Positions 3,234-43,461 are shown, counted from the stretch's first letter. The stretch is DNA of 64,000 bases from Patescibacteria group bacterium (GCA_023379125.1 JAMCSY010000004.1:58479-122478), one strand, 5' to 3'. Notes: generated by a model from the letters alone, not told the origin. Translations and numbers: made by a program.

Positions 3234-3250
3234 TGAAAACTTTTTGATAG

Positions 3251-22516: not shown

Positions 22517-22960
22517 TTATTTTTCTACAATTTCCCTCACAATTTTACCAATAAGCTCAAACGGAAATGGTTTGTCTAGTGGGAAATGAAAAGATGCCCT
22601 GGTAACTTGGTAGTCTTTTAACAGTTCCAATGATTTTCCTGCACGAGTTGGGGGTAAGTAAACGGCAATATAATTTTTAGATAAGCCAAAGTATATTAAT
22701 CGACTTTTAAAACCAGAACCGCCATATTCATAAAATGGCATACCATAGCTAATTTTTTCATGGGCTTTTGGCGCTGCTTTTATTATTTCTTGGCGAAGTT
22801 TAGTTAATGTTGCTTGAATTTCCTTAGGCGCCTGGGTAATATAAGAATCCACATCTTTTGGTATTTGCTTATTTTTCATTATAGTAAAAGTATAACAAAA
22901 AGTTATAATAAACTGCTGGAAGGGTGTCTGAAATAGCCTAATTATAATGCTCCACCTCAT
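22517..22960 (-). CDS. DUF1801/YdhG-like protein
   Basis: VDSYITQAPKEIQATLTKLRQEIIKAAPKAHEKISYGMPFYEYGG matches the YdhG-like family. Confidence 0.55.
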   Translation of the reverse strand: MRWSIIIRLFQTPFQQFIITFCYTFTIMKNKQIPKDVDSYITQAPKEIQATLTKLRQEIIKAAPKAHEKISYGMPFYEYGGSGFKSRLIYFGLSKNYIAVYLPPTRAGKSLELLKDYQVTRASFHFPLDKPFPFELIGKIVREIVEK

Positions 22961-22983
22961 GGATAACGTGCGAACCTATTATC

Positions 22984-23730
22984 TCACTGCTTAATAAAAT
23001 TATTACTTTTTCCCAAGTTACACTCTTCGCATAGTGTTTGTAAATTCTCTATTGTGCTTTTACCTCCTTTTGAAAAAGGAATCATATGGTCAATGTGAAG
23101 TTTGGTACCTATATCTGTAGCTGGGCTTTTTCCACAAAATACACATCTAAATTGATCTCGCGACAACACTTTTAATCTTAGACTTAAAGATATTGTTCTT
23201 GAATCAGAGGAGCTCCGTACGTATTCTCTTTCCATACCCCCAACCTGTTTAACTTCTTTAGTAAGTTCACTTTTATTATTGTCATCTGAAACAGTTACGT
23301 TCCCTGATTTTGATTCGATAAATTTGAGACAAGCATTTTGCCAACTACCGAAATGTCGAGGATAAGTATCGTAGCTTATTTTATAATCACTCCCAAGCCA
23401 CTCATCTTTAGATGGTTGATGACCGATTTTTATCCATATGCGTTCCATCTCGCCGAAAAGTTCTTTATCTGAATAGCTAGTTCTTCTCGACGTAAGTTTA
23501 AAATCTATTCCTTTACTATGTAAATGTTTCACTAGGAAATTCATGGCATTTTGCCAAGAGCCAAATTCTCGATAAACGGTATAACTACTAATAGACGCTA
23601 CCTTATCAAAGTCGTCTTGCCTGAAGTCGGTATAATTATTATTCCTTGCAACAGTTTCGAGTTCGGAAATAATACGATCCCTTTTTATTTTGCTTCCCTG
23701 ATATTTCCTTAATTCAAATTTGAAACTCAT
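22984..23730 (-). CDS. HNH endonuclease with two N-terminal homing-endonuclease-associated repeats
   Basis: C-terminal CVFCGK...HIDHMIPFSKGG...NLQTLCEECN HNH motif; a duplicated ...FGSWQNA... repeat in the N-terminal half. Confidence 0.7.
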   Translation of the reverse strand: MSFKFELRKYQGSKIKRDRIISELETVARNNNYTDFRQDDFDKVASISSYTVYREFGSWQNAMNFLVKHLHSKGIDFKLTSRRTSYSDKELFGEMERIWIKIGHQPSKDEWLGSDYKISYDTYPRHFGSWQNACLKFIESKSGNVTVSDDNNKSELTKEVKQVGGMEREYVRSSSDSRTISLSLRLKVLSRDQFRCVFCGKSPATDIGTKLHIDHMIPFSKGGKSTIENLQTLCEECNLGKSNNFIKQ

Positions 23731-23747
23731 AATAAAATTATTCGATT

Positions 23748-24638
23748 TTAATAGTTTTGAGGCGACTCTACGTAACCATCAAAAATAGCGGCCTCGATCT
23801 CATGCTTCTTTGGGTTATCGTCATCGAACGCATCCTCAACCATCTTTAGATCTAATAACGATTCGTCTTTAACTTTTTCAAAAGCTCCGGCGCTTAAAAA
23901 ATTACCATAAAAGTTTCTCTGGGGATTTACTACATTTTGTTCAAGTTGAATATCGAAATTATTCTTTAAATATTCCGTGATTTTGATATACACTGCTTCC
24001 GCTAGGCCATTATAAAGCTGTTGATTCTGAATATTACCGTGAATTAGTTTATGGCGTAAGCCAGTGCCATAGAGATAGAGTTTATCGTATAGCTCATTGC
24101 CTAAAATTGCTTTTAAAGCATTTTGATCTGTTCTCACTCTACCGTTTGCTCTAATCTCTCCTGCAAATCCTTCAGCAGCTCCAAGAAGCATCGTTAATCG
24201 AGTGATCGCCGTCATAGAATTTGCAGCTTCCATAATATAAAAGAGACCGTTTTTGTTAGGAATAGATTGAAATTTGGGCAACTGTTCGATCTCTTGTGTG
24301 TCAAAATGAAGCCCTGTGTGGCTAACTCCCTTGACGTAGTATATATAAATAATATTTTCAGGATTATGAGTTTTTTTAAATATGAAATAACTATTTGCAG
24401 CTAAACGGAACGCGCATTGAGATACCACTGAAAACTTTTCTACCTCAGGAATTAGCTCTGTAATAAACTTATACCTTGCTTCACCGGCATTATTGGCGCT
24501 TATGATTTTCGACGCAACCCACGCATCACAATTCCACCATTCGTTAGTGTAGGAACTGAAGTTATATCCTCCTGAGTTAAATCCCTGAATAAGTTCGGCT
24601 ACAGTTGCAATTTTATAGCTGATAAGATAATCGTTCAT
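23748..24638 (-). CDS. Hypothetical protein, middle gene of a four-gene operon
   Basis: 296 aa; start/stop overlap with the upstream gene (ATGA at 24638). Confidence 0.5.
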   Translation of the reverse strand: MNDYLISYKIATVAELIQGFNSGGYNFSSYTNEWWNCDAWVASKIISANNAGEARYKFITELIPEVEKFSVVSQCAFRLAANSYFIFKKTHNPENIIYIYYVKGVSHTGLHFDTQEIEQLPKFQSIPNKNGLFYIMEAANSMTAITRLTMLLGAAEGFAGEIRANGRVRTDQNALKAILGNELYDKLYLYGTGLRHKLIHGNIQNQQLYNGLAEAVYIKITEYLKNNFDIQLEQNVVNPQRNFYGNFLSAGAFEKVKDESLLDLKMVEDAFDDDNPKKHEIEAAIFDGYVESPQNY

Positions 24639-26089
24639 TATTTTTGTTTTCGATACAACTCTTCGTTTACAATTACTCCGTCATCTGTTTTTTGAATGTA
24701 CGGTTCGTGATGAGAGTCAGGGACGAAACCAAATCCTGAAGCATAAATGTCTTGGATAATAGATCCAGCAATCTTTTCTGATTTAATTAAATCCTCGGTA
24801 TCATAAGGTCCAAACTGCCAATTATCCTTTTTCTGAGTACCGACATTTGAACGAATAAAATTATTTACGGTCAATACAAGCGAGTATTTGCCTCCATTTT
24901 TCGTTATAAATCCAATTTCCACATCATAAGATAATCGTTCTTTATCAATGATCCCAGCATTAATTAATGCCTTGATAAATAAAAAGAAACTATTCACATA
25001 TTCAACAAAAGCAAAGGCGTTTAATAATTTTTTACCCTCATTCTTCTCGTCGTCTTGAAGACCCCAATCAAGAAACTCTTGTATATTAGCTCCTGCAGCA
25101 ACAATCCCATTTTTCGTAACTTTAAGTATCTTCCTATTACCGTTCATAACCTCCCAACTGTTTCCCTCGGGTTGAGGATATTCACTGTAGGCAACACTTA
25201 AATCCCAACCCATATTCCTTAATATGGGCGGATTCTTCATATGGTGATATATCGATCCATCTGACTTATCCCAGAAGTTATTGAGAGTTACCCCTCTTGT
25301 GGGAGTAGCAACCATATAAAAGACATCTGCCTCGGCATCAAGTTTATTGATAAATTCCTCGACTATTCTTTTTTTTTGTTCTACGTCTGGAGGTTGAATC
25401 GCGGATTTAGTCTGAGATTCCTCTATCCGATCCGCTATTGCAGATAGTCGACTTATTTGATTTTCAACACTTACGTTAGTCATGGAACCCGATAAAACAC
25501 CGGCCACATATTCTTGAAACTTGTGGGCGTCGACTAGTTGAATGTTTTTTGCGCCATCTCGAGTATATATTCCATAAACCTGCCCTTTAAGTACAATCTC
25601 TTCTTTTGGATTCCATTGGTCTTGAGGAATGATGAAGGGGTATAAGCCCATATCTTTGGCGTTGGGTATCTTAATCCACAACACTTCTTTATCTTTACTC
25701 ACAAACCCCGATGCAATCTTTTCTCTGGGAAAACGAGGTACTAAACCATCAGACAGTATATCCAGCCACCGTTCAATATCTAAAGCTTTTGCTTCTATTC
25801 CACAAACAGATTTTACATACTCAACCTGTCTGCCTTTAACGGTATCGGGAACCAAACCAATTAGCAAATATCCACCCCCGCTATTGGAGATTGAGGAAAT
25901 ATCCTTTAATAGCTCTGTTCTGGATTTATATTTAGCCCAGTCTTTTCCTGATTTTTCTTCTTCGAAGTAGGGTTTTTCTCGAAACTCGAAATAAGAAGTT
26001 TCTAACGCACCAATAAAAAGGCTCGGGTCATTATTCTTAATTATTTCCTCTATCTCTTGGATAGATAGAAGCTTCGTTGTAACTTCCAT
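24638..26089 (-). CDS. Protein with an N-terminal AlbA_2/Schlafen-like (divergent-AAA) DNA-binding domain and no P-loop
   Basis: The N-terminal ~100 aa (IQEIEEII...ELLKDISSISNSGGGYLLIGLVPDT) match the PF04326 pattern; there is no Walker A anywhere in the 483 aa. Confidence 0.5.
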   Translation of the reverse strand: MEVTTKLLSIQEIEEIIKNNDPSLFIGALETSYFEFREKPYFEEEKSGKDWAKYKSRTELLKDISSISNSGGGYLLIGLVPDTVKGRQVEYVKSVCGIEAKALDIERWLDILSDGLVPRFPREKIASGFVSKDKEVLWIKIPNAKDMGLYPFIIPQDQWNPKEEIVLKGQVYGIYTRDGAKNIQLVDAHKFQEYVAGVLSGSMTNVSVENQISRLSAIADRIEESQTKSAIQPPDVEQKKRIVEEFINKLDAEADVFYMVATPTRGVTLNNFWDKSDGSIYHHMKNPPILRNMGWDLSVAYSEYPQPEGNSWEVMNGNRKILKVTKNGIVAAGANIQEFLDWGLQDDEKNEGKKLLNAFAFVEYVNSFFLFIKALINAGIIDKERLSYDVEIGFITKNGGKYSLVLTVNNFIRSNVGTQKKDNWQFGPYDTEDLIKSEKIAGSIIQDIYASGFGFVPDSHHEPYIQKTDDGVIVNEELYRKQK

Positions 26090-26097
26090 AGTTCATA

Positions 26098-26361
26098 TCA
26101 AAAGGGCAGAAGCTTCCCCGCACTCACGTTGAGAGCTTTAGCAAGCTTATAGAGATTAATAAGAGATGGGTTCCTTACTCCTCTCTCAATTTGCCCAATA
26201 TAGGTAAAGTGCATACCGGCTTTATCGGCTAGCTCTTCCTGGGTCCACTCCTTTTCTTGCCTAAGTTTCCTTAGGTTTTGGCCAAAGGCCTTACGTATAT
26301 CTATCATACCCAATAAAACTACAAAAATGAAGACGATGTATCCAGAGACGATAAGTCTCAA
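26098..26361 (-). CDS. XRE-family HTH transcriptional regulator (true start probably at the internal Met near 26307)
   Basis: LRKLRQEKEWTQEELADKAGMHFTYIGQIERGVRNPSLINLYKLAKALNVSAGKL; its stop is 8 bp from the downstream gene. Confidence 0.75.
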   Translation of the reverse strand: MRLIVSGYIVFIFVVLLGMIDIRKAFGQNLRKLRQEKEWTQEELADKAGMHFTYIGQIERGVRNPSLINLYKLAKALNVSAGKLLPF

Positions 26362-26396
26362 TTTTGTTATAATGGGTTATTGGAAGGAGGTGTTAT

Positions 26397-26681
26397 ATGA
26401 ACACACTATTAAAAACAAGATGCACTAAAGGTCATTTAGTTATATATGAGGATCGCGTAGCCATAGAGCTAAACGGTCTTGGTTTTAGCAATACGAACTC
26501 TCTTACTTATAAGCAAATAACCGGCGTTGAAGTTAAGACCACGATGGCTAAAATCCCAATTCTCTCTAAAGGAGCTGCTACCATAAAAGTGTATGCTACC
26601 GGCGATCAAAAATTGGAAGCCTCTTTTGTAACGTTAGATGATGCTAAAAGGGCTGAAGAACTTATAAGGCAGCGCATATAA
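26397..26681 (+). CDS. Hypothetical small protein, divergent from the XRE regulator
   Basis: 94-aa ORF with a GGAGGT RBS 8 bp upstream. Confidence 0.45.
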   Translation: MNTLLKTRCTKGHLVIYEDRVAIELNGLGFSNTNSLTYKQITGVEVKTTMAKIPILSKGAATIKVYATGDQKLEASFVTLDDAKRAEELIRQRI

Positions 26682-26695
26682 AGTGATACAACATG

Positions 26696-26711
26696 TGCGA
26701 CACGTGTCGCA
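26696..26711. promoter_or_regulatory. Perfect 16-bp palindrome (TGCGACACGTGTCGCA), likely an operator
   Basis: Perfect inverted repeat. The 8-bp palindrome ATCGCGAT at 26714-26721 follows, placed just before a sigma-70-like promoter. Confidence 0.5.
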
Positions 26712-26736
26712 TTTATCGCGATAATACGGTCTATTC

Positions 26737-26765
26737 TTGACATTACTTACTTTAATTGTTAATCT
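26737..26765 (+). promoter_or_regulatory. Sigma-70-type promoter
   Basis: TTGACA, a 17-bp spacer, then TAATCT. Confidence 0.45.
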
Positions 26766-26897
26766 GAATATATATTAGCCCAGTCGCCCAGTGATATAGG
26801 CGCATACGAGGCACAAACCGAATCTCATTAGTCTTTTGACTGTTTGAGAACGGATATCACATAAGTTGATATTCGTTTCTTGGCAGTCTTTTTTTAT

Positions 26898-26923
26898 GGC
26901 ACCCAAGAAGCGGGTGCCTTTTT
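26898..26923 (+). terminator. Rho-independent terminator-like hairpin
   Basis: GGCACCC-aagaagc-GGGTGCC followed by TTTTT; the next ATG is 3 bp after it. Confidence 0.5.
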
Positions 26924-26926
26924 AGT

Positions 26927-27139
26927 ATGGAAATGAAGACTAATACACAACTACCGATATCTAATAGCCGACTTAGGTTATCTCCTAAAGCTATATCCGA
27001 TTTTCAACAAGCTTTTTTTGAAGAATACGGCATAAGAATCTCCGAACAAGAAGCTAATACTTGCGGTTTAAGGCTCCTTAGATTAGTCAAACCTGTTTAT
27101 AAACCCATTCCAGTCAAAAGTTATGGAAAATCCAAGTAG
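26927..27139 (+). CDS. Hypothetical small protein
   Basis: 70-aa ORF. Confidence 0.35.
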   Translation: MEMKTNTQLPISNSRLRLSPKAISDFQQAFFEEYGIRISEQEANTCGLRLLRLVKPVYKPIPVKSYGKSK

Positions 27140-27365
27140 CACTTATCGAACAAAAGATCTGTATCTTGCTTCCTATCTATTTTCGGAAGGAATCGAGTTA
27201 TCGGGATCAGACAGAGTCGGATCAGTATATTGGTTCGTCTTTGCAAATAAAGTTGAATGCGAACGCCTAGCAAATCTCTACTGGACAGATCGAGCCAACT
27301 CGAAAATTAAGTCGTTTGTAGAAGCCATACGGTCTTTGAAGGACATTATTTTCGCTAAACCTTAA
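27123..27365 (+). CDS. Small phage/mobile-element-type protein; paralog of the 40823 ORF
   Basis: KDLYLASYLFSEGIELSGSDR...VYWFVF...LKDIIF aligns with DSYLLACYLLSESCQLVSIDR...MVFIFQ...LKAMIY at 40823-41068. Confidence 0.5.
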   Translation: MENPSSTYRTKDLYLASYLFSEGIELSGSDRVGSVYWFVFANKVECERLANLYWTDRANSKIKSFVEAIRSLKDIIFAKP

Positions 27366-27378
27366 TCAGACTAATGAG

Positions 27379-27825
27379 ATGAATATGGACAACATGGATA
27401 GAAACAAGCTAATTGAACGTTATAGACAGCGTTCAGAAGCAAATAAAGGAATTGAAAATCATTTTTTATGGACAAGGGTCAATTTTTCGACCGCAAGAGA
27501 TGGTCATATCCGAAAGCTTGGAGCAAACGCGTTTGCAGTCTTTATGGTAATTCGTACTTATATGGATAAAGAAAAAATCGCTTATCCGTCGCTTGCACGA
27601 ATAGCTTATCAGTCAAACTTAAGTGTTCGAACGGTAGAAAAAGCATTAAATAAGCTCGTCGACGAGGGTTGGATTAAAAAGGTAGGCAGAATGATCGATA
27701 AAGGTAAGTTCGGAAATACAAGATATCTAATACTCCAACATGATCTTATAAGAGGGACTGATGACCCGAGTTTTATGAGTAAGCCAATAGCAAATATTGC
27801 CAATGGTAATCAAGGCAACCAATAG
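27379..27825 (+). CDS. Winged-helix DNA-binding protein (replication-initiator/DnaD-like HTH)
   Basis: SLARIAYQSNLSVRTVEKALNKLVDEGWIKKV looks like a winged-helix motif. Confidence 0.4.
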   Translation: MNMDNMDRNKLIERYRQRSEANKGIENHFLWTRVNFSTARDGHIRKLGANAFAVFMVIRTYMDKEKIAYPSLARIAYQSNLSVRTVEKALNKLVDEGWIKKVGRMIDKGKFGNTRYLILQHDLIRGTDDPSFMSKPIANIANGNQGNQ

Positions 27826-27952
27826 CAAAAAACCAACTATGGATAAATACCAAGTAAGTATTATCTATGTTTTAAGAACTATTAATAAGAATAATTGTTT
27901 TATATATAAAAAGAAGAAAAGTTTACAAAATTGACACTATAAAAAAAGAGAT

Positions 27953-28453
27953 ATGGCAAACGAACTAGTCAGAGAAAAAACGAAGCAAAAGTTTCTAGAT
28001 ATCCTCTCCGAAGAGGCAGGAGGTAATATCAGCGAGGCTTGTAAAGCAGTTGGTTTTAGCAGGCAAGCCATTAATGAATGGCGGTTAAACGACCATAGCT
28101 TTGATAATCGAGTACAACAGGCAATCTTAAACGGAAAAGAGGATCTAGCTGATTTAGCAGAAACACATCTACAAAAAAGAATTCGTAATGGGGACACAAC
28201 AGCAATTATTTTTACACTTAAATCTTTAAGACGAACATTTTTTGGGGAAAGAATTGAAGTCGAAACGGCAAAAAAGAGCAACAATGGTCGAGCTATTAGT
28301 TTAACTCCTGGCTTTTCAAAAACTCTGTTAGCAATCGGTTTAAAGCAAGCCCCGACTAACGTTCTTACCGAAGAGCAAAGAAAACAACTTAATGGATTAG
28401 TTGGAATTTTTGAAGATTATTATGATAATCTTAATGAAGACGATAAGTCTTAA
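27953..28453 (+). CDS. Terminase-small-subunit-like HTH protein
   Basis: GGNISEACKAVGFSRQAINEWRLNDHSFDNRVQQAI resembles terminase small subunit / Psq-type HTH proteins. Confidence 0.45.
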   Translation: MANELVREKTKQKFLDILSEEAGGNISEACKAVGFSRQAINEWRLNDHSFDNRVQQAILNGKEDLADLAETHLQKRIRNGDTTAIIFTLKSLRRTFFGERIEVETAKKSNNGRAISLTPGFSKTLLAIGLKQAPTNVLTEEQRKQLNGLVGIFEDYYDNLNEDDKS

Positions 28454-28459
28454 TTCAAT

Positions 28460-30855: not shown

Positions 30856-30875
30856 TGATTTAGGAAAATATTTTT

Positions 30876-31214
30876 ATGAGCCGCCTCTCTGTTGAAGAAT
30901 GTCAAAAGTTGTATATCACTAGCCTTAAAAACTCCTTAACTAGCGGAATAATTCTTGATATAAACGGCGTACCGGTTAGTTTAGTAACTACAAAATGCCA
31001 TTATGGCGGTGTACGGTTTTGGTTCTCTTGCCCTGGTTGCCATAAGAGAGTTGGGGCTTTATACCGTAAACCTCTTGCTCAATATTTTTTATGCAGGCAT
31101 TGTTTAGGATTAGTTTATCAGCTTACTATTAAGCGCCGTTCAAAGGATGAGGGTTGGATAAAATTACTTCATTCTTTCCGAAATTTACCTGTTTATCATA
31201 AAACTAGTGCATAA
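30876..31214 (+). CDS. Small zinc-ribbon protein
   Basis: CPGCHKR...CRHC forms a CxxC...CxxC motif. Confidence 0.4.
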   Translation: MSRLSVEECQKLYITSLKNSLTSGIILDINGVPVSLVTTKCHYGGVRFWFSCPGCHKRVGALYRKPLAQYFLCRHCLGLVYQLTIKRRSKDEGWIKLLHSFRNLPVYHKTSA

Positions 31215-31268
31215 TAAAAGTAGTAGGATTGTCTTTTAAAAGTCTGTATACTAAATATAGGTGCCATT

Positions 31269-36325: not shown

Positions 36326-39011
36326 ATACCTGTGGCATACTTGCGTTTAGCTCGCTTATAAACGGTAATAACTTATTGTCAAAATCATCGTTAATGCGCT
36401 TAAAATTGCCGCCTAAGTTAATAAATATCGGCATATCGTCAAAGTCTTCCGGCTCAATGGTTAGGTTTTCAACTAAATGTAGTTTTATTAGCTCCAACCA
36501 TTTTCGTTGCTTATCGGTTAGGTTTTTACCACCGATTACTTTTTCCATTGCCAGGTCTACACGTTCTTTAGCCGATAACAACGGCTCGTCTTTAGCGGCG
36601 TGTTTGACCATAGAAATAATATCAGCTAAGGGGTATTTATAAGCGCGGCGTAGGTTACTTTCGGTAAAGCGCTCCGGTTGTTCGGCTAATGATTGTCTAA
36701 GTTCTTTCAGCGCTTCGGTATTCCATGCCTGCGGCTTTTGTAAAACTATACTTATAGCTTCAATATGCTCTGGGTTGTCCTTTACAAACTGCTCAAATTG
36801 TTGGATATAATCCTCAGGTTTTAACTCGCGCCCGTCAGTTGTCCTAAACACATACTGCGATCCAACGGTGTCTTCCTGTTCAATCGCCCTTATAAACCGT
36901 TTTGGCGGCCTTGGGTAGTTTTTCAGTAGGTCAATAAACTTAGGATCGGTTAATACTTTCAACGTACCCACTCTATCCTCCGCCAGTTTATCAGGTAAAT
37001 TTTTTGCAAAAGCGCTTATATCACCATCAGTAATATACTTCGCAAACATTTCCCGGCCTTCGGCGGTAATGTTTTTGGCTATTCGTTGTAGTCTTTTAAC
37101 TAAACATCGGGTGTTGTATTCAACATCAACGTTGTTATTAATCGCGTTTATTATTTCCTCAATCGTACGGGTAGGGTTAACCGGCGTTACTTGGGTAATA
37201 CCGGTACTATTTTTAAAGGCTTCTAGTAGGGTTCCGTCAAAACAGTCAAATACGGTAAAGTGAGTTTTGGGTGGTGTGCCTAACCCATTAGGGAAATTAC
37301 TGCATAAACGCGTACCGCGTCCAAGCATTTGTTCAAACAAAATGCGGGACTTTACCGGCCTTAAAAATATAATGTTTTCTATTGCCGGTATATCAACTCC
37401 GGTTGAAAGCATATCAACGGTTACTACTATGTGCGGCTCTGGGCGATTTCTAAACTCTTTGATACGGGTTAACGGCCTATCAACTGTTGGTGAACCGGTT
37501 ATTTTCTGAACAAAAGCATCGCCTCTGCCAAATACATCACGGCAAATATCAACGAGTTGATCGGCATGGGAAGTGTGGGATAAATCGTTATCAGCAAATA
37601 TTAAAGTCTTTGGAAAACGGCCGGTTTCTTCCTCTTGTTGTAAAGCGTACTTTGCAAACTCTTGGATTATTTTGCGGTTACTATCAGGTGCGGTAATATC
37701 CCGCTCAACTTCAGTAACTTCAAAATGGCGTTCATCCTCAAGTAAATCAAGCTGTTGCGCGCCGGTATTCGGATCAACTTGTTCAACTTCTTCCCCCTCT
37801 TTTAAGGTAATCCCCTCAAGGCGGACACCGGAGGAAATTTTGACAGCATCATAATCAACTAAGTAACCGTCTTGTACTGCTTGTTCATAGGTATAACGGT
37901 AAGCAATTTCTTTAAAATAACTTGTGGTATGGGCGGCAGGAGTAGCGGTTAATCCGATTTTAACAGCGTCAAAATGGTCTAAGACACCGCGCCATTTGCT
38001 TATTTCTTGTGAAGTATAACCGCGGTGGCATTCATCAGCGATAATCGTATCAAAAGCGTTAATCGGCATATCAATTTTATCGGCATCATCATCGGGATCG
38101 TAATCACCGCTATAACTAAACATACCCTCTCGGCCGTAAAGGTTTATTTGCATCCGTTGGATCGTTGAAACATAAACAAAAACTTGGTTTCCGTCAGGAT
38201 CAGTTAAGTAAGCGGTTGGGATTACATTAAAATCAACCTTTTCATTACTGTCAAAATCATCAATTTTAAAACGTTGGCTATACACCTGATAAATTTGGTT
38301 AAACTTCAAACCGTTTTCTGCCTCATAAGCGGCAAACTCCATGACGGCTTGGGCGGCTAAGGCTTTTCTATCAACTAAAAATAGTATTCGTTTACTTGTA
38401 CCGGACTTTAATAAACGATAAATAAGCGAAGCTACGGTAAAGGTTTTGCCTGTACCGGTTGCCATAGCGACAAGCATTGAACGCTTATTATCGGTAATCG
38501 TTTTTTCGATCGCGGTTATAGCATCACGTTGATAATAGCGTAGCTTTCCCTCTGCGGGTGGGTTTTGGGCAAACCATTTTGTATTTTCGTAAGCGTCATT
38601 ATTAAGGTATTCAATTAAGGCTTTAGGTGTATGGAACTCCTGTATTTGCCGAGAACGGCTAGGGTTATGTCTTAAGTCTTGGAACCATATAACCTCACCG
38701 TTAGTTGAGTATATAAACGGAACCTCAATTCCGCTTTGCCCAGCTCCTTTAACGTAGCGCTGAGCTTGTTGGAGAACATTTTGGGGACCTAAGGATATTT
38801 TCTTAGCTTCAACGAAAGCGACTAGCTTCCCATTAGCAAAAAGTGCGTAATCAACCGGTCCGGTTGCCGTCATGTATTCTTCAACGGCGGTTTTGTGTAA
38901 GTTTGTGGTGTCTAAACCTTCCTCATAACGGATTATTTTATCCCAACCCGACTTTTTAAGTTTTTCGTCGATCCACTTCTTACGAGTGGTCTGCTCGTCG
39001 ATAATTTCCAT
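36309..39011 (-). CDS. hsdR: Type I restriction enzyme R subunit (helicase-nuclease)
   Basis: Walker A MATGTGKTFT, DEAH-box IIADECHRG and the helicase C-terminal QMLGRGTR motif. Confidence 0.9.
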   Translation of the reverse strand: MEIIDEQTTRKKWIDEKLKKSGWDKIIRYEEGLDTTNLHKTAVEEYMTATGPVDYALFANGKLVAFVEAKKISLGPQNVLQQAQRYVKGAGQSGIEVPFIYSTNGEVIWFQDLRHNPSRSRQIQEFHTPKALIEYLNNDAYENTKWFAQNPPAEGKLRYYQRDAITAIEKTITDNKRSMLVAMATGTGKTFTVASLIYRLLKSGTSKRILFLVDRKALAAQAVMEFAAYEAENGLKFNQIYQVYSQRFKIDDFDSNEKVDFNVIPTAYLTDPDGNQVFVYVSTIQRMQINLYGREGMFSYSGDYDPDDDADKIDMPINAFDTIIADECHRGYTSQEISKWRGVLDHFDAVKIGLTATPAAHTTSYFKEIAYRYTYEQAVQDGYLVDYDAVKISSGVRLEGITLKEGEEVEQVDPNTGAQQLDLLEDERHFEVTEVERDITAPDSNRKIIQEFAKYALQQEEETGRFPKTLIFADNDLSHTSHADQLVDICRDVFGRGDAFVQKITGSPTVDRPLTRIKEFRNRPEPHIVVTVDMLSTGVDIPAIENIIFLRPVKSRILFEQMLGRGTRLCSNFPNGLGTPPKTHFTVFDCFDGTLLEAFKNSTGITQVTPVNPTRTIEEIINAINNNVDVEYNTRCLVKRLQRIAKNITAEGREMFAKYITDGDISAFAKNLPDKLAEDRVGTLKVLTDPKFIDLLKNYPRPPKRFIRAIEQEDTVGSQYVFRTTDGRELKPEDYIQQFEQFVKDNPEHIEAISIVLQKPQAWNTEALKELRQSLAEQPERFTESNLRRAYKYPLADIISMVKHAAKDEPLLSAKERVDLAMEKVIGGKNLTDKQRKWLELIKLHLVENLTIEPEDFDDMPIFINLGGNFKRINDDFDNKLLPFISELNASMPQVYAYAN

Positions 39012-39026
39012 AAATTTTTATGCTTA

Positions 39027-39218
39027 TTATTTATTTTTATTTTTTTCTATAAACCGTTCTATATCCTCAGGCTTATAACGCCTATCACCACGTACACTTA
39101 CCTTGACGGCGGGAAGTTTACCTTCCTTATCCCATCGGCGCAGGGTTTCAGGGTTAACCCCTAATATTTCTGCTGCCTCGCGAATTTTCAGTAACCTCAA
39201 CTTTTTACCGGTAGTCAT
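39027..39218 (-). CDS. Xis/AlpA (MerR-superfamily) excisionase-type HTH protein
   Basis: LLKIREAAEILGVNPETLRRWDKEGKLPAVKV; its stop lies 16 bp before the hsdR start. Confidence 0.65.
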   Translation of the reverse strand: MTTGKKLRLLKIREAAEILGVNPETLRRWDKEGKLPAVKVSVRGDRRYKPEDIERFIEKNKNK

Positions 39219-39338
39219 AATTACAATTAACTACAAATACTTATACATCATTTTATCGCATTAAGCTGGAGTTTTCTATGGGTTTTGAGGAACGACAAAA
39301 CTCCTCCTTTAAGAGGGATTGTCTTTACATAAGTTTGA

Positions 39339-39641
39339 TTATTTCCGGATTTCGTTAAGGACGAAGTCTTGTACCTTTTCCGCCCAGTTTTTTGGGATTT
39401 CTACCTCGGCTAATAATGTCCCTCTACCGTTTAACTTAACAACATTTTTTCCCATTCCGCCTTTATCCAAACTAACCGATTCGATGTCTGCCTTCACTAC
39501 TCGGAATGATTTACCGTAAATACTTTGGTAAGAAATATAGTTATCATTGGCTTTAAAAGTGTAGCCACCCATCCCAAAAGACAATTTTCGTTCGTTTTTA
39601 TTGTTATTTCCAAAACCAAATAAGCCCATTATTTTTTTCAC
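39339..39641 (-). CDS. Hypothetical small protein
   Basis: 100-aa ORF. Confidence 0.4.
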   Translation of the reverse strand: MKKIMGLFGFGNNNKNERKLSFGMGGYTFKANDNYISYQSIYGKSFRVVKADIESVSLDKGGMGKNVVKLNGRGTLLAEVEIPKNWAEKVQDFVLNEIRK

Positions 39642-39745
39642 CTCCCTTCGTCAAACATTAACTACGTCTTTTTATAAGGAGGCGGGCAACAAAAAGCTCC
39701 CCGCCAGCGATGGCTTTCGCCACCCACGCAGGTTTCCCCACGCGA

Positions 39746-39794
39746 CCGTGCAAGGTGCTCTGACGAGGAGCTTCCTACCTTGCACGGTATTTTT
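39746..39794 (+). terminator. Long GC-rich hairpin plus U-tract inside a locally GC-rich 150-bp non-coding patch
   Basis: CCGTGCAAGGT...ACCTTGCACGG is an 11-bp stem enclosing the GCTC-tgacgag-GAGC hairpin, followed by TATTTTT. Confidence 0.45.
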
Positions 39795-39912
39795 AGCCAT
39801 GCCTCTTGCGAGGTTTAGGCGTAAGTAAATTTGGAAACTTACCTCACGTTAATTATACATAATTCTACAGGCTCCGGTATAATCGGATAAGGTAATAAGG
39901 ATAAAAATAAGA

Positions 39913-40629
39913 ATGAAAAATACACGGATAATTCTGAATAAATATCACTATATTCTTAGGGCAATTAGTTTGTCTGATAAATACAAAAGAGCACTAAACG
40001 AAATTACCGCTGATGCTAAATCAATAGGATGCCCACTTCCGGTTAAGGGCTTTATTAAAGCGAGTGATTATACAAACTGGCAGGAGCAAATAGAAAAGCA
40101 CGGGCGAACAGCTCATGATTACGCTCAAAACGTATTGAAATTATTTAACCTGAAAACTAACGATGAGCTATTAACAGGCCGGTTATGCATGATGATGTTC
40201 TTAAATGTTAAAGCTCCTCCGACCATTGGAACAATTGGTTATTCTGCTGACTTAGACAACGAAAAAAACGAGGTCAACATTAAGTTAACTTTTTATCCTT
40301 GGACAACTAAAGAAGACTTTGACGGATTGGAAATTTGGAAAGACGTTGAATCATTTAGGAAAATGTTGCTCACCCCACGGCATGTAACAAAAAATAAGGA
40401 ATGGAAAACTTTTGAACGCGATTTAAAAGTTTATCACCGATATCAGCAACTTCAGAAACAATATCCAAAAGAAAAATCAGTCGTTCATATACTCCTAAAT
40501 GACAAAAAATTTGAAAAGTTTTACGAAAGCGATGATCAAGCAAATGATTTAGCAATAGTATCGGAACAAATATATAAAATAATAAAACGTTGCAGAACAA
40601 CATTAGGAAATAACTTTTCTACCGTTTAA
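39913..40629 (+). CDS. Hypothetical protein
   Basis: 238-aa ORF. Confidence 0.45.
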   Translation: MKNTRIILNKYHYILRAISLSDKYKRALNEITADAKSIGCPLPVKGFIKASDYTNWQEQIEKHGRTAHDYAQNVLKLFNLKTNDELLTGRLCMMMFLNVKAPPTIGTIGYSADLDNEKNEVNIKLTFYPWTTKEDFDGLEIWKDVESFRKMLLTPRHVTKNKEWKTFERDLKVYHRYQQLQKQYPKEKSVVHILLNDKKFEKFYESDDQANDLAIVSEQIYKIIKRCRTTLGNNFSTV

Positions 40630-40822
40630 TCACCCCTCATTAGACTTCCGTGAGTTTTGGTCATCCGTACATCAGAATTAAGGTGTTATGGATACCGATA
40701 AGGATAAAGAAATTCAAGTAGCTATTCAAAAAGCGGCTGAACAATGGGTAAACCTCATGATGATGTTTTTACGAAGTAAACGCACCAAAAGAGGTTCAGC
40801 GAATAAAAAATAAATAATTAAT

Positions 40823-41068
40823 ATGGATAAAAATACATTTTCTACCGACTCTTACCTCCTTGCTTGTTACCTCCTTAGTGAATCCTGCCAACTTGTTTCC
40901 ATTGATCGTACTAATCCACGAAGAATGGTTTTTATTTTCCAAGAGTCTAAACGCCGAAAAGAACTTACTGATAATTTTTTAGCATATCAAGCAAGTATCG
41001 AGCCTCACCGGTTTCATAGTGCTCAAAGGGATTTAAAAGCGATGATTTATCAACGAACGACTGGGTAG
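40823..41068 (+). CDS. Small phage/mobile-element-type protein; paralog of the 27123 ORF
   Basis: Shares the motif order of 27123-27365 (see that entry). Confidence 0.5.
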   Translation: MDKNTFSTDSYLLACYLLSESCQLVSIDRTNPRRMVFIFQESKRRKELTDNFLAYQASIEPHRFHSAQRDLKAMIYQRTTG

Positions 41069-41106
41069 TTAATATACCCACGAAAAATAAGAATAAGCAT
41101 AAAAGT

Positions 41107-41514
41107 ATGGGCAAATTATTAGAGCTAGTAACAATAAAAATAAATTTCAAAATGCAGGGCAATTTTTTAGCTACCGTCACTTTAAATTGGCAAGACGAAT
41201 TCGAAGTTCGTTATTGTCGAATATACCGGTCAGGAGCAGGAAAAATATTCTTACAACCGCCGGCTTTAGGAAATGCAAATTGGGTAAAGTGTTTCGGAGT
41301 ACTTAATTATGATGACTGGAAATGGCTAGAAAAAAAGGTAATTGATCAGTTTAAAGAAGAATTAAAAGAAAAAATCGGCGAAGGAACATTTTCGCCCGCC
41401 GTTTTAAAAAGGATTGAGGAATCGGAGGAGGAAATCGTTAATCCTAATGACATACCGGACAATTTAGGAGAAACCGATATTAACTCTATTCCTACTTATA
41501 AGAACAAACAGTAA
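41107..41514 (+). CDS. Hypothetical protein
   Basis: 135-aa ORF with an acidic C-terminus. Confidence 0.4.
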   Translation: MGKLLELVTIKINFKMQGNFLATVTLNWQDEFEVRYCRIYRSGAGKIFLQPPALGNANWVKCFGVLNYDDWKWLEKKVIDQFKEELKEKIGEGTFSPAVLKRIEESEEEIVNPNDIPDNLGETDINSIPTYKNKQ

Positions 41515-41570
41515 CTATATAGTAACTAAGTAACTATATGTATATATGAGTAAAAAGGGAGTTTACATTA
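41510..41570. repeat. Iteron-like short direct repeats (AGTAACTA three times, plus AGTAAAAAG twice)
   Basis: cagtaactatatagtaactaagtaactatatg...gagtaaaaagg...agtaaaaagag. Confidence 0.4.
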
Positions 41571-41621
41571 GTAAAAAGAGTATATAGAATTAAGTAATAG
41601 TATGTATAAGTAATTAAGGCT

Positions 41622-41828
41622 ATGAATAAAATGAATTATAGAGAAATATTAGGAGAAGCAAGAGCAGTACACTTTGCTATGCATAGAGGCGCTATTACTT
41701 ATGAAAAAGCGGTCGAGTTAACGAAACCTTTACTGGGAATTCTTAATGTTAAGGCTACGGAAATAGCCAAGCGGTATAAAATTCGGCCGCGATTATTAAA
41801 ATTTCAGGATTTAGGAAGAACTATATGA
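41622..41828 (+). CDS. Hypothetical small protein
   Basis: 68-aa ORF. Confidence 0.35.
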   Translation: MNKMNYREILGEARAVHFAMHRGAITYEKAVELTKPLLGILNVKATEIAKRYKIRPRLLKFQDLGRTI

Positions 41829-41876
41829 TACATAAAGCGCGTCAGGTGTCGCACTCATTATCAGTTAATTAAAAAT

Positions 41877-43401
41877 ATGAAAAATTGTTTTATTTACCTA
41901 CGAGTTTCAACCGAAGAACAAGCTAAGGAAGGCTTTTCAATCGAAAACCAGAAAAGAGCCTGTATTGAATTTGCAAAATCAAAAGGATATCACGTTAAGC
42001 GTGTTTTTATTGATGACGGAAAGAGCGCTCGAACTACCGACAGAGCCGCTTTACAAGAAATGCTTAAGTTAGCTAAGGGACAGGAGGTTCAAAATGGATA
42101 ACCAATTACTAATAGACGCAATAATCATTTATAAAATCGACCGATTTGCTCGAAATGTTGGCGATTTTTCCGACATGTATAAAGAACTTAAAAATAAGGG
42201 AATTAAGTTAATATCCGTTAATGAGGGTGATTTGATGGAGGGAACAAGCCTTATACCCAACATTTTCGCTAGTGTGGCTCAATGGGAAAGTGAAGTTAAC
42301 AGCATGAGAACGCGAGACGCGTTAACACAAAAGTTCCGAGAGGGTTGGCAACCTACTCCTCCTCCTATCGGTTATCGAAGTGTTGGAGCTGATCGCGAAC
42401 GCAAGACTTGCGAACCGGATCCTTATACTGCCCCAATCATACGAGAGCTTTTTGAAATATATTCAACTGGAAACTATTCGATTTACGATTTACAAAATTG
42501 GCTAGCCGAGCGAAACATATCCTCTAAAAGCGGTACAAACTTAGGACATAGCGTTATCGATACGATTCTAACCAATCCTTTTTATTACGGATGGATCAGG
42601 TGGCATGGTGAAGGGAAAATGGGTAAGCAAGCGCCGCTTATAAGCAAGGACTTATTCGATACGTGCCAATATGTTTTAGCTAAACATCGTAATTTTTTAA
42701 TGCGAAAACGGCTCCACCAATTTTTACTTAGAGGCTTTGCTTATTGTAGTGAGTGTGGACAGAGGTATACCGCTGAATGGCATTTTAAACCCAGGTTTAC
42801 TAGAAGAAACGGCAAAATAGCTTATTACCATTGTCCCAAAATGAACCGTAACGGATGTCCCGCTCCTTATGTTGAAGTATCGGAACTTGAGGAACTTGTT
42901 AGAAATACCGTTAAATCAATTCAATTTAGCCAAGAATTTGTTGATGCGGTAGTAGCAAAAGCTAAGGAGTTTGTAGACGATAGCCGTAAACGGGCAACTT
43001 CTGAAACTCAAGGCTGTATTAATCAGCGAATAGCTCTTGAAAACCGGCGTAATAAGCTAGAAGACGCTTTATTAGACGGAACTATTGATCGGGTGGTATT
43101 TAAGAGAAAACACGATGAAATACAGGAACAGCTGGGTTTTATTGATAGCCGAATTAGGGAAATAGAAACAAACTCACGGGTGGATATAAAACTAATTGAG
43201 GACGTTCTTAACTTTACAAGGGATATTGGCAGGACCTATGACGAAGCGGAAGAATTTCTACAACGACACTTCTTAAGGTTTTTCTTTGAAAAAATTATTG
43301 TAAAAGAGAGGAAAATTGAGAGGGTTATTTATACGCCGGTTATAGCTACTTTAGTAGAAAACCGTCAGGTTATAATAAAAAACCTTATGCTCCTCCGGTA
43401 G
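41877..43401 (+). pseudogene. Large serine recombinase interrupted by a +1 frameshift near 42094-42101
   Basis: The 74-aa ORF (YLRVSTEEQ catalytic Ser) continues in the 435-aa ORF (KIDRFARN ..., recombinase domain, zinc ribbon CSECGQ...CPKMNRNGC) in the +1 frame. Confidence 0.65.
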
Positions 43402-43461
43402 GATTCGAACCTACAACCTTGTCGTTAACAGCGACCTGCTCTACCGTTGAGCTACAGAGGA
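43390..43461 (-). tRNA. tRNA-Asn (anticodon GUU)
   Basis: Reverse complement reads TCCTCTG-TA-GCTC-AACGGTA-GAGC-A-GGTCG-CTGTTAA-CGACA-AGGTT-GTAGG-TTCGAAT-CCTAC-CGGAGGA-G. The UCCUCUG start resembles canonical bacterial tRNA-Asn. It overlaps the recombinase stop by 12 nt. Confidence 0.8.

What the first reader, a model, noticed from the sequence alone, without database searches (positions are those of the whole stretch)
22900..43461. Composite island abutting tRNA-Asn with two related integrative modules, each carrying a large serine recombinase
tRNA-Asn overlaps the stop of a large serine recombinase, and that recombinase is frameshifted. Leftwards from it lie phage-like small genes, the R-M operon and a second module: operator palindrome, DUF paralog 27123, wHTH, terminase-small-like protein, then an intact serine recombinase at 28460. 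Each module holds one copy of a paralogous small protein (27123-27365 and 40823-41068). That fits two related elements inserted in tandem or nested, rather than one. Many ORFs here have phage or mobile-element character, and the core genes (rpoD, dnaG) resume immediately to the right of the tRNA.
Basis: partly seen in the sequence, partly recalled or inferred. Interest (0 to 1): 0.55.

Follow-up and report, generated by a model that had tools for sequence, protein, structure and literature searches.

The report
Two stacked integrative elements at tRNA-Asn
A 20.4-kb insertion beside a tRNA-Asn gene in an uncultured candidate-phyla-radiation (CPR) bacterium is two small defence-carrying mobile elements stacked one behind the other, each inserted by its own serine recombinase, at a site where older copies have decayed.

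Summary
A 99.9%-identical genome (L001) lacks exactly 20,440 bp (window 22954-43393), so this is a true insertion at the 3' end of tRNA-Asn.

It is two units. Element A is 22954-30143 (7.19 kb, intact recombinase LSR1). Element B is 30144-43393 (13.25 kb, type I R-M, LSR2 with a +1 frameshift at 42091-42094).

All three junctions share the core TGCTCC. The A|B boundary lies inside the 3' end of the LSR1 reading frame. In this recombinase family the attP site sits within the recombinase gene, so integration swaps the enzyme's C-terminal tail.

Circular contigs from other samples show which tail belongs to which enzyme: a 45-aa "F" tail to LSR2-type and a short "M" tail to LSR1-type. That makes the units (M…LSR1) and (F…LSR2) and disfavours a single composite insertion.

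Three decayed junctions at about 16.8, 20.8 and 21.7 kb, also present in L001, show older stacking at the same site.

The host is a Microgenomates (CPR) bacterium, and relatives of both recombinases sit at tRNA genes across CPR. It resembles SCCmec-type stacking, but at a tRNA in an understudied phylum.

Element B also carries a LOOT RNA, whose function is unknown.

The parts
22947..22953 (+). Left junction (attL of element A). Core ATGCTCC, with the host arm on its left and the element's 'M' arm on its right.
   Evidence: Empty site in L001. The M arm (22954-22995) matches the attP of circular L113: tcc.c.t.ATGGATAACG..GAAC.TATT.
22954..30143 (+). Element A, 7,190 bp. Cargo on the minus strand, a regulator, a plus-strand core module, and the LSR1 body up to the core.
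   Evidence: Bounded by an M arm and an LSR1-type P arm, the same unit as in L017, L095, L106 and circular L113.
22984..23730 (-). HNH endonuclease with HNH-associated repeats (cargo of A).
   Evidence: Pfam HNH_repeat and HNH. PADLOC gives weak REase_II and PtuB-like hits.
23748..24638 (-). 296-aa protein of unknown function (cargo of A).
   Evidence: No Pfam, PHROG or PADLOC hit.
24638..26089 (-). 483-aa protein with a Schlafen/AlbA_2 domain (cargo of A).
   Evidence: Pfam PF04326, E = 2.5e-7.
26098..26361 (-). Cro/C1-type HTH_3 regulator of A, divergent from the plus-strand module.
   Evidence: Pfam HTH_3, E = 3.7e-20. 72% identical homolog in the same position in L095.
26849..26877 (.). 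Palindrome AACGGATATCA-N7-TGATATTCGTT in the control region of A (candidate operator).
   Evidence: Function is inferred.
27123..27365 (+). DUF5659 protein of A.
   Evidence: Pfam PF18903. One copy per element in nearly all related loci examined.
27379..27825 (+). wHTH (HTH_36) protein, like the N-terminus of replication initiators.
27953..28453 (+). Terminase-small-subunit-like HTH protein.
   Evidence: phrog_4044, E = 1.8e-13.
28460..30289 (+). LSR1 ORF (609 aa). Residues 1 to about 561 are the recombinase of A. The last 48 residues (30144-30289) are the 'F' tail encoded by element B.
   Evidence: Pfam Resolvase and Recombinase. Homologs integrated at tRNAs stop at about residue 560. The F tail occurs on an LSR2-type enzyme in a circular element.
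30138..30143 (+). Internal junction A|B: LSR1 P arm, then core TGCTCC, then the F arm of B.
30144..43393 (+). Element B, 13,250 bp. F tail, the 189/112/229-aa genes, PIN, a 397-aa gene, type I R-M, regulators, LOOT RNA, the plus-strand module and LSR2.
   Evidence: Same (F…LSR2-type) unit in L013 and L095, and as a 9,646-bp circle in L109-L111. L102 shares homologs of the 229-aa, PIN and 397-aa genes.
30286..31214 (+). 189-aa and 112-aa gene pair directly downstream of the att arm.
   Evidence: The same pair follows the att arm in L014 and L095. No family hit.
31935..32384 (-). PIN-domain protein.
   Evidence: Pfam PIN_3, E = 9e-14.
33571..39011 (-). Type I restriction-modification operon: hsdS 33571-34926, hsdM 34895-36325, hsdR 36309-39011.
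   Evidence: Pfam. hsdM and hsdR homologs are 86% identical in the L007 element.
39027..39218 (-). HTH_17/MerR-type small protein (excisionase-like; candidate directionality factor or regulator).
   Evidence: Pfam HTH_17 and phrog_66. Its role is inferred.
39709..39821 (-). LOOT RNA (Rfam RF03000) in the divergent control region of B. It contains the perfect 12-nt inverted repeat at 39745-39788.
   Evidence: 86 bits against a gathering score of 46.4. for the repeat. Compensatory stem changes in alignment A1.
40823..41068 (+). DUF5659 protein of B.
   Evidence: Pfam.
41877..43401 (+). LSR2, a large serine recombinase pseudogene. The +1 frameshift is in the A4 run at 42091-42094, and the 3' end crosses the att core into the tRNA.
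43387..43393 (+). Right junction (attR of B). Core ATGCTCC overlapping the last 5 nt of the tRNA-Asn gene.
   Evidence: The P arm GGTTATAATAAAAAACCTTATGCTCC is identical in L007.
43389..43461 (-). tRNA-Asn(GTT), the attB target, intact.
   Evidence: ARAGORN and Rfam, 67 bits.
21727..21860 (+). Fossil junction: TTGCTCC followed by an in-frame F tail (…YIGELRQRWLEIKRL…). Also present in L001.
   Evidence: tblastn E = 2.6e-8 to the P0132 tail. Sequence shown.
20812..20928 (+). Fossil F-like tail (NITSQFLRIFKVFEDFRFSSQLRGEMEKVRP), close to the tail of LSR2-type protein P0015.
16839..16880 (+). Probable fossil junction: ATGCTCC plus an M-like arm (MLHLIDRLRKYF). 13 of its first 14 nt match the junction at 22947.
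   Evidence: The HMM score is weak (10.9 bits).

Best explanation
The 20,440 bp between 22954 and 43393 are two independent small integrative elements stacked head-to-tail at the 3' end of tRNA-Asn. Each was inserted by its own large serine recombinase (LSR).

In this family attP lies inside the 3' end of the LSR gene. The last conserved codons are the P arm. The 6-bp core TGCTCC is read as Leu-Leu/Pro. The P' arm encodes the enzyme's own C-terminal tail.

attB is the tRNA end: TGCTCC is the complement of GGAGCA, that is, the last 5 nt of the tRNA plus 1 nt.

Integration leaves the tRNA intact. It places the LSR gene against the tRNA with a truncated tail, and leaves the tail-coding arm at the far end of the element.

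The new right junction still holds the whole tRNA half-site plus the core, so a further element can insert there. Element A (M arm…LSR1) most likely came first. Element B (F arm…LSR2) then inserted between A and the tRNA. This fused LSR1's reading frame to B's F tail and destroyed A's attR.

LSR2 has since acquired a frameshift. B therefore cannot excise, and A is trapped behind it.

Decayed junctions at about 16.8, 20.8 and 21.7 kb are earlier rounds of the same process.

Cargo is mostly defence-type: type I R-M and PIN in B, HNH and a Schlafen/AlbA_2 protein in A.

Shown: the insertion, the junctions, which arm pairs with which enzyme, the circular forms of relatives, and the frameshift.

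Inferred: the order A then B, the immobilisation, and the roles of the cargo, of the HTH_17 protein and of DUF5659.
For: - **Empty site.** L001 is 99.9% identical and joins window 22946 directly to 43387.
- **Shared core.** The three junctions read aTGCTCC|acctc, cTGCTCC|ctagc and aTGCTCC|tccgg.
- **LSR2-type enzymes sit at tRNA-Asn elsewhere.** They abut tRNA-Asn with the same P arm in L007-L011, L013, L099, L100 and L102-L105.
- **LSR1-type enzymes sit at tRNAs elsewhere.** They abut tRNA-Asn (L015, L106) or tRNA-Trp (L017, L018), and their ORFs stop at about residue 560.
- **Circular LSR2-type element.** L109, L110 and L111 come from three sequencing runs. They are exact rotations of a 9,646-bp circle with a 30-nt terminal overlap, and they carry an LSR2-type enzyme with an F tail.
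- **Circular LSR1-type element.** L113 (23-nt terminal overlap) carries an LSR1-type enzyme with an M tail. Its attP closely parallels the window's reconstructed P1+M site.
- **Probable solo element.** In L017, HAD and NUDIX genes and a terminator-like sequence are followed by TGCAG plus an M arm. An LSR1-type gene at tRNA-Trp closes the element on the right.
- **Arrays with the same units.** L013 has F…LSR2-type. L106 has an LSR2-type ORF read into an M tail, followed by an LSR1-like enzyme at the tRNA. L095 has an F arm, a P2-like remnant (GGTTATAATAAG), then M…LSR1-type, then another F arm.
- **Both reconstructed attP sites keep the recombinase in frame**.
- **The F tail is under protein-level constraint.** Across 28 pairwise comparisons of 21 codons there are 200 synonymous and 236 non-synonymous codon differences; one pair shows 13 against 3.
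- **Tail statistics.** About 73-78% of 240 homologs end in tRNA-derived residues. About 13% carry an F, M, W or V tail.
- **Composition.** Tetranucleotide usage of A and B deviates from the host.
Against: - The whole 20.4 kb differs from L001 as one clean indel. One event would be more parsimonious than two.
- No genome or contig with A alone at this site was found.
- In strictly alternating arrays the tandem and 'intact internal attP' readings are formally interchangeable. The decision rests on the circular contigs and on L017.
- A circular de Bruijn contig could also come from a tandem duplicate.
- L113's terminal overlap is 23 nt, not the 30 nt seen in L109-L111.
- Dyad symmetry between the P and P' arms was not decisive: GGTTATA in P2 mirrors both the F and the M arms to some degree.
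- The order of arrival is inferred. A inserting into B's attL would give the same final structure.
- The frameshift may derive from a single read set.
- No recombination has been observed experimentally.
Confidence: 0.82

Rival explanations
1. The island is a single composite element. A 20.4-kb circle with two recombinase/attP pairs integrated once through LSR2's attP (P2 + M arm). On this reading LSR1 with the F tail is an unrecombined, intact attP carried inside it.
For: There is one clean 20,440-bp indel relative to L001. LSR1-type enzymes with an F tail recur upstream of LSR2-type modules (L013, probably L014). The LSR1 ORF is uninterrupted through the core.
Against: - The circular contigs pair the F tail with LSR2-type enzymes and the M tail with LSR1-type enzymes.
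- L017 shows an M arm bounding an apparently solo LSR1-type element next to host genes.
- All six units examined read (M…LSR1-type) or (F…LSR2-type). None reads the other way.
- Each half has the complete canonical element architecture.
Confidence: 0.1
2. The island is a degraded prophage, or a pair of phage satellites that depend on a helper phage for packaging, rather than autonomous non-viral integrative elements.
For: Element A has a TerS-like protein and a replication-initiator-like wHTH. The related element L094 carries a PriCT primase, a TerS-like protein and a large terminase. The circular 9.6-kb forms could be replicating or packaged DNA.
Against: No capsid, portal, tail or lysis genes were detected in A, B or the circles. 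Only 2 distant hits were found in IMG/VR. The LSRs are only about 24% identical to phage integrases. A satellite lifestyle is compatible with the tandem model, so this is not a true alternative for the structure.
Confidence: 0.15
3. The region is not mobile. It is an ancestral segment that was deleted in L001 by chance recombination between short repeats.
For: The flanking repeat is only 7 bp and is no more frequent than chance. GC content does not differ from the host.
Against: The breakpoints coincide exactly with recombinase-associated att arms that are conserved in other genera and in circular molecules. The tRNA is regenerated precisely. Tetranucleotide usage is foreign.
Confidence: 0.02

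Closest known systems
SCCmec / SCC and enterococcal cassette chromosome elements (ccr large serine recombinases at the 3' end of rlmH/orfX)
   Same: LSR-mobilised, non-conjugative cassettes carrying accessory cargo. They insert at one chromosomal site that is regenerated on one side. They therefore pile up in tandem as composite islands, with short direct repeats between units and with decayed remnants. (From established knowledge; PMC6222049 appeared but was not read.)
   Different: The target here is a tRNA 3' end rather than rlmH. Each unit has a single recombinase, not a ccrAB pair. The recombinases share only about 24% identity with any annotated phage LSR, and ccr proteins were not compared directly. 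attP lies inside the recombinase ORF, so tails are exchanged. The host is a CPR bacterium.
Phage large serine integrases (phiC31, Bxb1, A118, TP901-1, SPbeta)
   Same: Resolvase catalytic domain, recombinase domain and zinc-ribbon domain. Short core identity at attP and attB. The integrase gene lies next to attP at one end of the integrated element.
   Different: No virion genes are present. These enzymes target tRNA genes, which is typical of tyrosine integrases. The ORF reads through the crossover site.
tRNA-linked genomic islands and tandem island arrays made by tyrosine integrases (P4-like)
   Same: Integration at the 3' end of a tRNA gene that restores the tRNA. There is repeated use of the same tRNA, giving arrays with degraded older members.
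   Different: The enzyme class is serine, not tyrosine. The repeat is 6-7 bp rather than 15-50 bp of the tRNA end.
SSV1-type archaeal integrases, and integration-dependent immunity of cluster G mycobacteriophages (attP inside a gene)
   Same: attP lies within a coding sequence, so the gene product differs between the free and the integrated state. (From established knowledge.)
   Different: Those systems use tyrosine integrases. In SSV1 the int gene is split into two parts. In the mycobacteriophages it is the repressor 3' end that changes. Here a serine recombinase loses or swaps a 12-48-aa tail.
Phage-inducible chromosomal islands / phage satellites, and defence islands
   Same: Size of 7-13 kb. 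Content: an integrase, divergent repressor-type regulators, a replication-initiator-like gene, a TerS-like gene and anti-phage cargo. Cargo in relatives includes R-M, CBASS, Pycsar, Thoeris, Qat and Avs-like systems.
   Different: No helper phage, packaging site or induction is known. In PICIs the integrase lies next to the repressor, whereas here it is at the far end.

Membership tests
Large serine recombinase (integrase) superfamily | N-terminal resolvase catalytic domain with the catalytic serine motif | tested here: met
   PF00239 hits for LSR1 (E = 6e-18) and for both halves of LSR2. The N-termini read YCRKSSEQ and YLRVSTEEQ.
Large serine recombinase (integrase) superfamily | Recombinase domain (PF07508) followed by a zinc-ribbon domain (PF13408) | tested here: met
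   LSR2 has both above threshold. LSR1 has PF07508 above threshold. Its PF13408 score is 23 bits, just under the 25.3 cut-off, with an insertion. Both match phrog_95 'integrase' at E = 6e-78 and 4e-60.
Large serine recombinase (integrase) superfamily | Recombination between attP and attB that share only a short core, giving hybrid attL and attR | tested here: met
   There is an empty site, two outer junctions and one internal junction, all sharing TGCTCC. The arms match the attP of circular relatives. Catalysis itself was not tested.
Large serine recombinase (integrase) superfamily | 2-bp staggered cleavage at a central dinucleotide, with directionality set by an RDF | not testable with these tools
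   The symmetry analysis suggested a centre near TC of GCTCC but was not decisive. The HTH_17 and DUF5659 proteins are only candidate RDFs.
SCC-type tandem cassette arrays | ccrAB/ccrC recombinases and insertion in rlmH (orfX) | tested here: not met
   The target is tRNA-Asn. Each unit has a single LSR that is distant from annotated LSRs. It works like SCC stacking but is not a member.
SCC-type tandem cassette arrays | Several units in tandem at one regenerated site, separated by short direct repeats | tested here: met
   Junctions at 22947, 30138 and 43387, plus fossils at 16839, about 20800 and 21727.
Prophage | Virion structural and lysis genes | tested here: not met
   None were detected by Pfam or PHROGs in 22954-43393.
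Phage satellite (PICI-like) | Integrase, repressor, replication module and packaging-redirection gene, with dependence on a helper phage | tested here: inconclusive
   Element A has HTH_3, a rep-like wHTH, a TerS-like protein and an LSR. Helper dependence is not testable here.
LOOT RNA (Rfam RF03000) | Match to the covariance model above the gathering score, with covarying stems | tested here: met
   86 bits against 46.4 at 39709-39821. Six further element-borne copies. Compensatory changes in alignment A1.

The most novel reading that the evidence does not exclude
CPR bacteria may host a large, undescribed family of serine-recombinase elements in which attP sits inside the recombinase gene. 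If so, the enzyme's conserved C-terminal tail is present only in the free circle. On integration it is removed, or handed to the neighbouring element's recombinase. The tail would then act as a built-in sensor of the free versus integrated state that sets directionality or stability. The LOOT RNA, whose function is unknown, would be the elements' own control-region RNA. That might also account for an association with tRNA genes that I recall from memory and could not verify here.
Probability: 0.3. Interest if true: 0.75.

Novelty: new variant of a known kind. Interest (0 to 1): 0.6.

Why it matters
Mobile elements and defence islands of CPR/Patescibacteria are poorly described. Four full-text searches found no paper on CPR serine-recombinase elements at tRNAs, or on DUF5659.

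This locus, with its relatives, gives a worked example with base-pair junctions, an empty site and circular forms. It shows that these reduced genomes gain R-M, CBASS, Thoeris, Qat and other systems through small LSR cassettes. These cassettes stack at tRNA genes and then decay into 'core-looking' DNA.

It provides natural attP/attB pairs for two divergent LSR families that target a conserved tRNA end, which may interest recombinase tool builders.

It raises a testable idea: a recombinase whose C-terminus depends on integration state.

It also places an orphan Rfam family (LOOT) in a defined genetic context.

For annotation, it warns that an 'intact' recombinase ORF can be a chimera spanning two elements.

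Tried and rejected
- **Long tRNA-end repeat.** A search for a long direct repeat of the tRNA 3' end found none. Only the 7-bp core is repeated, and its frequency is at chance level.
- **GC content.** The GC profile shows no shift.
- **Dyad symmetry.** I used symmetry of the P and P' arms to assign arms to enzymes. This was ambiguous: P2's GGTTATA mirrors both the F arm (TATAAC) and the M arm (AACC), and P1 has no clear mirror.
- **Tail-class counts.** Counting tail classes per recombinase family gave no pairing. F, M, W and V tails occur with both families.
- **Alternating arrays.** Arrays that alternate between the two types cannot separate the two models. Only the circular contigs and L017 broke the tie.
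- **L015 left end.** No junction was found within 10 kb.
- **L017 versus L018.** There is no shared synteny on the left side.
- **Public collections.** The genome-contig scan with LSR1 gave only 4 close loci. The metagenome scan with LSR2 gave 8 loci. The IMG/VR scan gave 2 distant loci.
- **Defence annotation.** PADLOC hit only the HNH protein, and weakly.
- **LOOT literature.** The main text of the LOOT source paper does not discuss the motif, and its supplements are not held.
- **Nested insertion.** This was rejected because there is no second pair of junctions inside either unit.

Full report
**1. What is in the window**

tRNA-Asn(GTT) lies at 43389-43461 on the minus strand. rpoD and dnaG are immediately to its right.

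To its left lies a split large serine recombinase (LSR2) made of 41877-42101 and 42094-43401. Its stop codon (43399-43401) falls inside the tRNA 3' end. Removing one A from the run at 42091-42094 gives a 507-aa protein. That protein aligns end to end with hundreds of homologs of about 500 aa.

Going leftward, element B holds:
- a 68-aa and a 135-aa gene, then a DUF5659 protein (40823-41068) and a 238-aa gene;
- a control region;
- a 100-aa ORF and an HTH_17 protein (39027-39218);
- a type I hsdR/M/S operon (33571-39011);
- a 397-aa gene and a PIN gene;
- three plus-strand genes of 229, 112 and 189 aa.

Beyond these comes an uninterrupted 609-aa recombinase (LSR1, 28460-30289). It is preceded by a TerS-like protein, a rep-like wHTH, a second DUF5659 (27123-27365), small ORFs and a palindrome (26849-26877). 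Further left are an HTH_3 regulator and three minus-strand cargo genes: a Schlafen/AlbA_2 protein, a 296-aa protein and an HNH endonuclease.

The similarity between the two 'modules' is architectural. The recombinases are about 25% identical and the DUF5659 paralogs 28%.

**2. It is an insertion, with base-pair boundaries**

The exact rpoD protein occurs on a 101-kb contig of another assembly (L001, GCA_023485375.1).
- L001 1-12246 matches window 55632-43387 at 99.9% identity.
- L001 12237-21092 matches window 22956-14101 at 99.99% identity.

L001 reads …taattataATGCTCCtccggtaggattcg…. The window reads …taattataATGCTCCacctcatgg… at 22947 and …aaaaaccttATGCTCCtccggtagg… at 43387. The insert is therefore 20,440 bp, flanked by a 7-bp repeat that covers the last 5 nt of the tRNA gene.

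The repeat alone is not significant: 7 copies in the window against 6.1 expected. GC content does not change. Tetranucleotide usage of the insert does deviate: r = 0.87 and 0.82 against at least 0.97 for host pieces.

**3. Host and relatives**

Homologs of both recombinases are numerous. LSR2 had 469 hits at E ≤ 1e-20, and LSR1 had 4,388 among the 8,000 candidates scored. Where a source names them, they come overwhelmingly from Microgenomates and other Patescibacteria. Both enzymes are only about 24% identical to any annotated phage integrase.

LSR2-type genes end at tRNA-Asn in eight further distinct loci, with the same P arm (GGTTATA…TGCTCC). In L013 and L104 the neighbours are again rpoD and dnaG.

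LSR1-type genes end at tRNA-Asn (L015, L106) or at tRNA-Trp (L017, L018). More distant LSRs in Saccharibacteria and Jorgensenbacteria loci also end at tRNA genes.

**4. The recombinase ORFs cross the att core**

In integrated copies next to a tRNA, the ORF runs through TGCTCC (read as Leu-Leu/Pro). It then stops within the tRNA complement or reads on as …LPREDSNLEP….

In the window, LSR1 instead continues after CTGCTCC (30137-30143) into 48 further residues (…PQFEAILKAFTNPIWMGEMRVRWNEIKKL…). This 'F' tail is conserved in L013, L014, L094 and L095.

Among the 240 retrieved homologs, 73-78% end in tRNA-derived residues. About 13% carry one of four non-tRNA tails, which I call F, M, W and V. All four occur with both recombinase families.

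If LSR2 is read across a circular junction into the island's left end, it gains …MLHLMDNVRTYYLTA*, an 'M' tail.

The F tail shows many synonymous changes between copies: 200 synonymous against 236 non-synonymous codon differences, with one pair at 13 against 3. It is therefore a selected peptide, not just a binding site.

**5. One composite or two in tandem?**

Two readings fit the window alone.
- H1: the 20.4 kb integrated once through LSR2 (attP = P2 + M), and LSR1 with the F tail is an intact internal attP.
- H2: the units are (M…LSR1) and (F…LSR2), integrated one after the other.

Arm symmetry and tail counts could not decide between them. Arrays that alternate between the two types are formally ambiguous.

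Three lines of evidence decide for H2:
- **(a) Circular LSR2-type element.** An LSR2-type enzyme with an F tail (P0101) sits on 9,676-bp contigs from three sequencing runs. These are exact rotations of one 9,646-bp circle with a 30-nt terminal overlap. F is therefore the cognate P' arm of LSR2-type enzymes.
- **(b) Circular LSR1-type element.** An LSR1-type enzyme with an M tail (P0174) sits on a 9,588-bp contig with a 23-nt terminal overlap. Its site is …caaaatccatctttGCtccgcttaatggataacgccggaacttatt…. This closely parallels the window's reconstructed P1+M site, …caaaatccaactctGCtccacctcatggataacgtgcgaacctatt….
- **(c) Probable solo element.** In L017, HAD and NUDIX genes and a terminator-like sequence are followed by TGCAG. 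An M arm comes next, with the distal motif CGAACTTATTA at the same spacing as in the window. Cargo follows, and an LSR1-type gene at tRNA-Trp closes the element.

Arrays elsewhere read the same way:
- L013 has F…LSR2-type.
- L106 has an LSR2-type ORF read into an M tail, followed by an LSR1-like enzyme at the tRNA.
- L095 has an F arm, then a P2-like remnant, then M…LSR1-type, then another F arm.

Both reconstructed attP sites keep the recombinase in frame.

I therefore place the A|B boundary at 30143/30144. Element A is 7,190 bp and element B is 13,250 bp.

**6. How it most likely works**

Integration at the tRNA end regenerates the tRNA. The new right junction keeps the tRNA half-site and the core, so the next element can insert there. 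In every array examined the intact units lie nearest the tRNA and the decayed ones furthest away. This fits the newest unit being proximal (inference).

On that basis A arrived first and B second. B's arrival replaced the tRNA half of A's attR with the F arm. LSR1 therefore cannot excise A until B leaves. LSR2's frameshift now prevents that.

The left flank, shared with L001, carries three older junctions:
- ATGCTCC plus an M-like arm at 16839;
- an F-like tail at about 20812-20928, close to the tail of P0015;
- TTGCTCC plus a well-preserved F tail at 21727-21860.

The DUF1801, DUF998 and neighbouring 'core' genes between them are thus probably relics of earlier cargo. Their tetranucleotide usage is intermediate (r = 0.955).

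**7. What the elements are**

The common plan is:
- the P' arm;
- optionally the 189/112-aa gene pair;
- cargo, mostly on the minus strand;
- HTH_17 and/or HTH_3 regulators;
- a plus-strand module (small ORFs, DUF5659, an HTH_36/DnaD-like wHTH, sometimes a TerS-like protein, TerL or a primase);
- the LSR, then the P arm.

Cargo in relatives includes CBASS, Pycsar, Thoeris ThsB, QatABCD, an nSTAND/Avs-like protein, and type I, II and III R-M systems. These elements are therefore defence-island builders.

No virion genes were detected. Whether they replicate as episomes or are phage satellites remains open.

**8. Comparison with known systems**

The closest functional analogue is SCCmec-type stacking of LSR cassettes at rlmH. 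The target, the tRNA restoration and the decaying arrays recall tyrosine-integrase islands. An attP inside a gene recalls SSV1 and integration-dependent immunity.

I found no description of this family or of DUF5659 in the searchable literature. I rate it a new variant of a known kind.

**9. By-product**

The control region of B contains a LOOT RNA (RF03000, 86 bits, 39709-39821). Six related elements carry one too, in five of them about 80 nt from the HTH_17 gene. The long stem shows compensatory changes.

**10. Limits**

- There is no experimental evidence.
- No A-only intermediate was found.
- The circular contigs are from relatives, not from this element.
- The order of arrival, the immobilisation and the roles of the tail, HTH_17, DUF5659 and LOOT are inferences.

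Noticed in passing
window 39709-39821 (-); L100 2597-2722, L102 6419-6532, L103 118-242, L106 6450-6572 (+); L113 69-186 (-): A LOOT RNA (Rfam RF03000, function unknown) lies in the divergent control region of element B and of six related LSR elements. Five of those six are LSR2-type. In L100, L102 and L106 it lies about 80 nt upstream of the HTH_17 gene (in L103 that region is cut off). Its orientation relative to the recombinase differs between loci. The long stem covaries.
   Followed up: partly
L013 11577-11836; L106 21034-21233: In two other genera the tRNA-Asn next to rpoD carries a group I intron in its anticodon loop (Rfam Intron_gpI, 81 and 73 bits). ARAGORN misses these tRNAs. The LSR elements still insert at their 3' ends.
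   Followed up: partly
window 16839-16880, 20812-20928, 21727-21860 (also in L001): Three decayed att junctions, one M-like and two F-like, lie in the 'core' flank left of the island. The genes between them (acetyltransferase, OmdA, DUF998, DUF1801 and others) may be relic cargo of older elements.
   Followed up: partly
L109, L110, L111 (SRR31712301, SRR31712300, SRR31980947); L113 (SRR29366200): A 9,646-bp circular LSR2-type element was assembled identically, but rotated, in three sequencing runs. A contig of 9,588 bp (23-nt terminal overlap) appears to be a circular LSR1-type element. These are candidates for free or replicating forms.
   Followed up: yes
L018 10001-11176 and 11718-12212: The LSR1-type gene in L018 is interrupted by an insert of about 540 nt between residues 395 and 396. 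It could be an intron, an intein or a small insertion.
   Followed up: no
L019, L020, L022, L025: More distant LSRs (33-43% identical to LSR1) in Saccharibacteria, Jorgensenbacteria and other Patescibacteria contigs also end at or within about 115 nt of tRNA genes. tRNA targeting therefore looks general for this CPR recombinase clade.
   Followed up: partly
window 3250-3322: tRNA-Ile with the anticodon TAT, an unusual way to read AUA codons. A tmRNA lies at 54177-54570.
   Followed up: no
window 30286-31214; L014 1980-2801; L095 2510-3277: A conserved 189-aa plus 112-aa gene pair sits directly downstream of the att arm, co-oriented with the recombinase. It occurs in both LSR1-type and LSR2-type elements. 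In the circular form it would lie immediately downstream of the recombinase gene, so it may be co-transcribed with it (inference). It has no family match.
   Followed up: partly
L002 and L003 (Logan contigs), window about 43417-43434: Short-read assemblies of both source runs break inside tRNA-Asn at the island edge. This could reflect a mixed population (with and without the island) or several identical tRNA-Asn copies.
   Followed up: no
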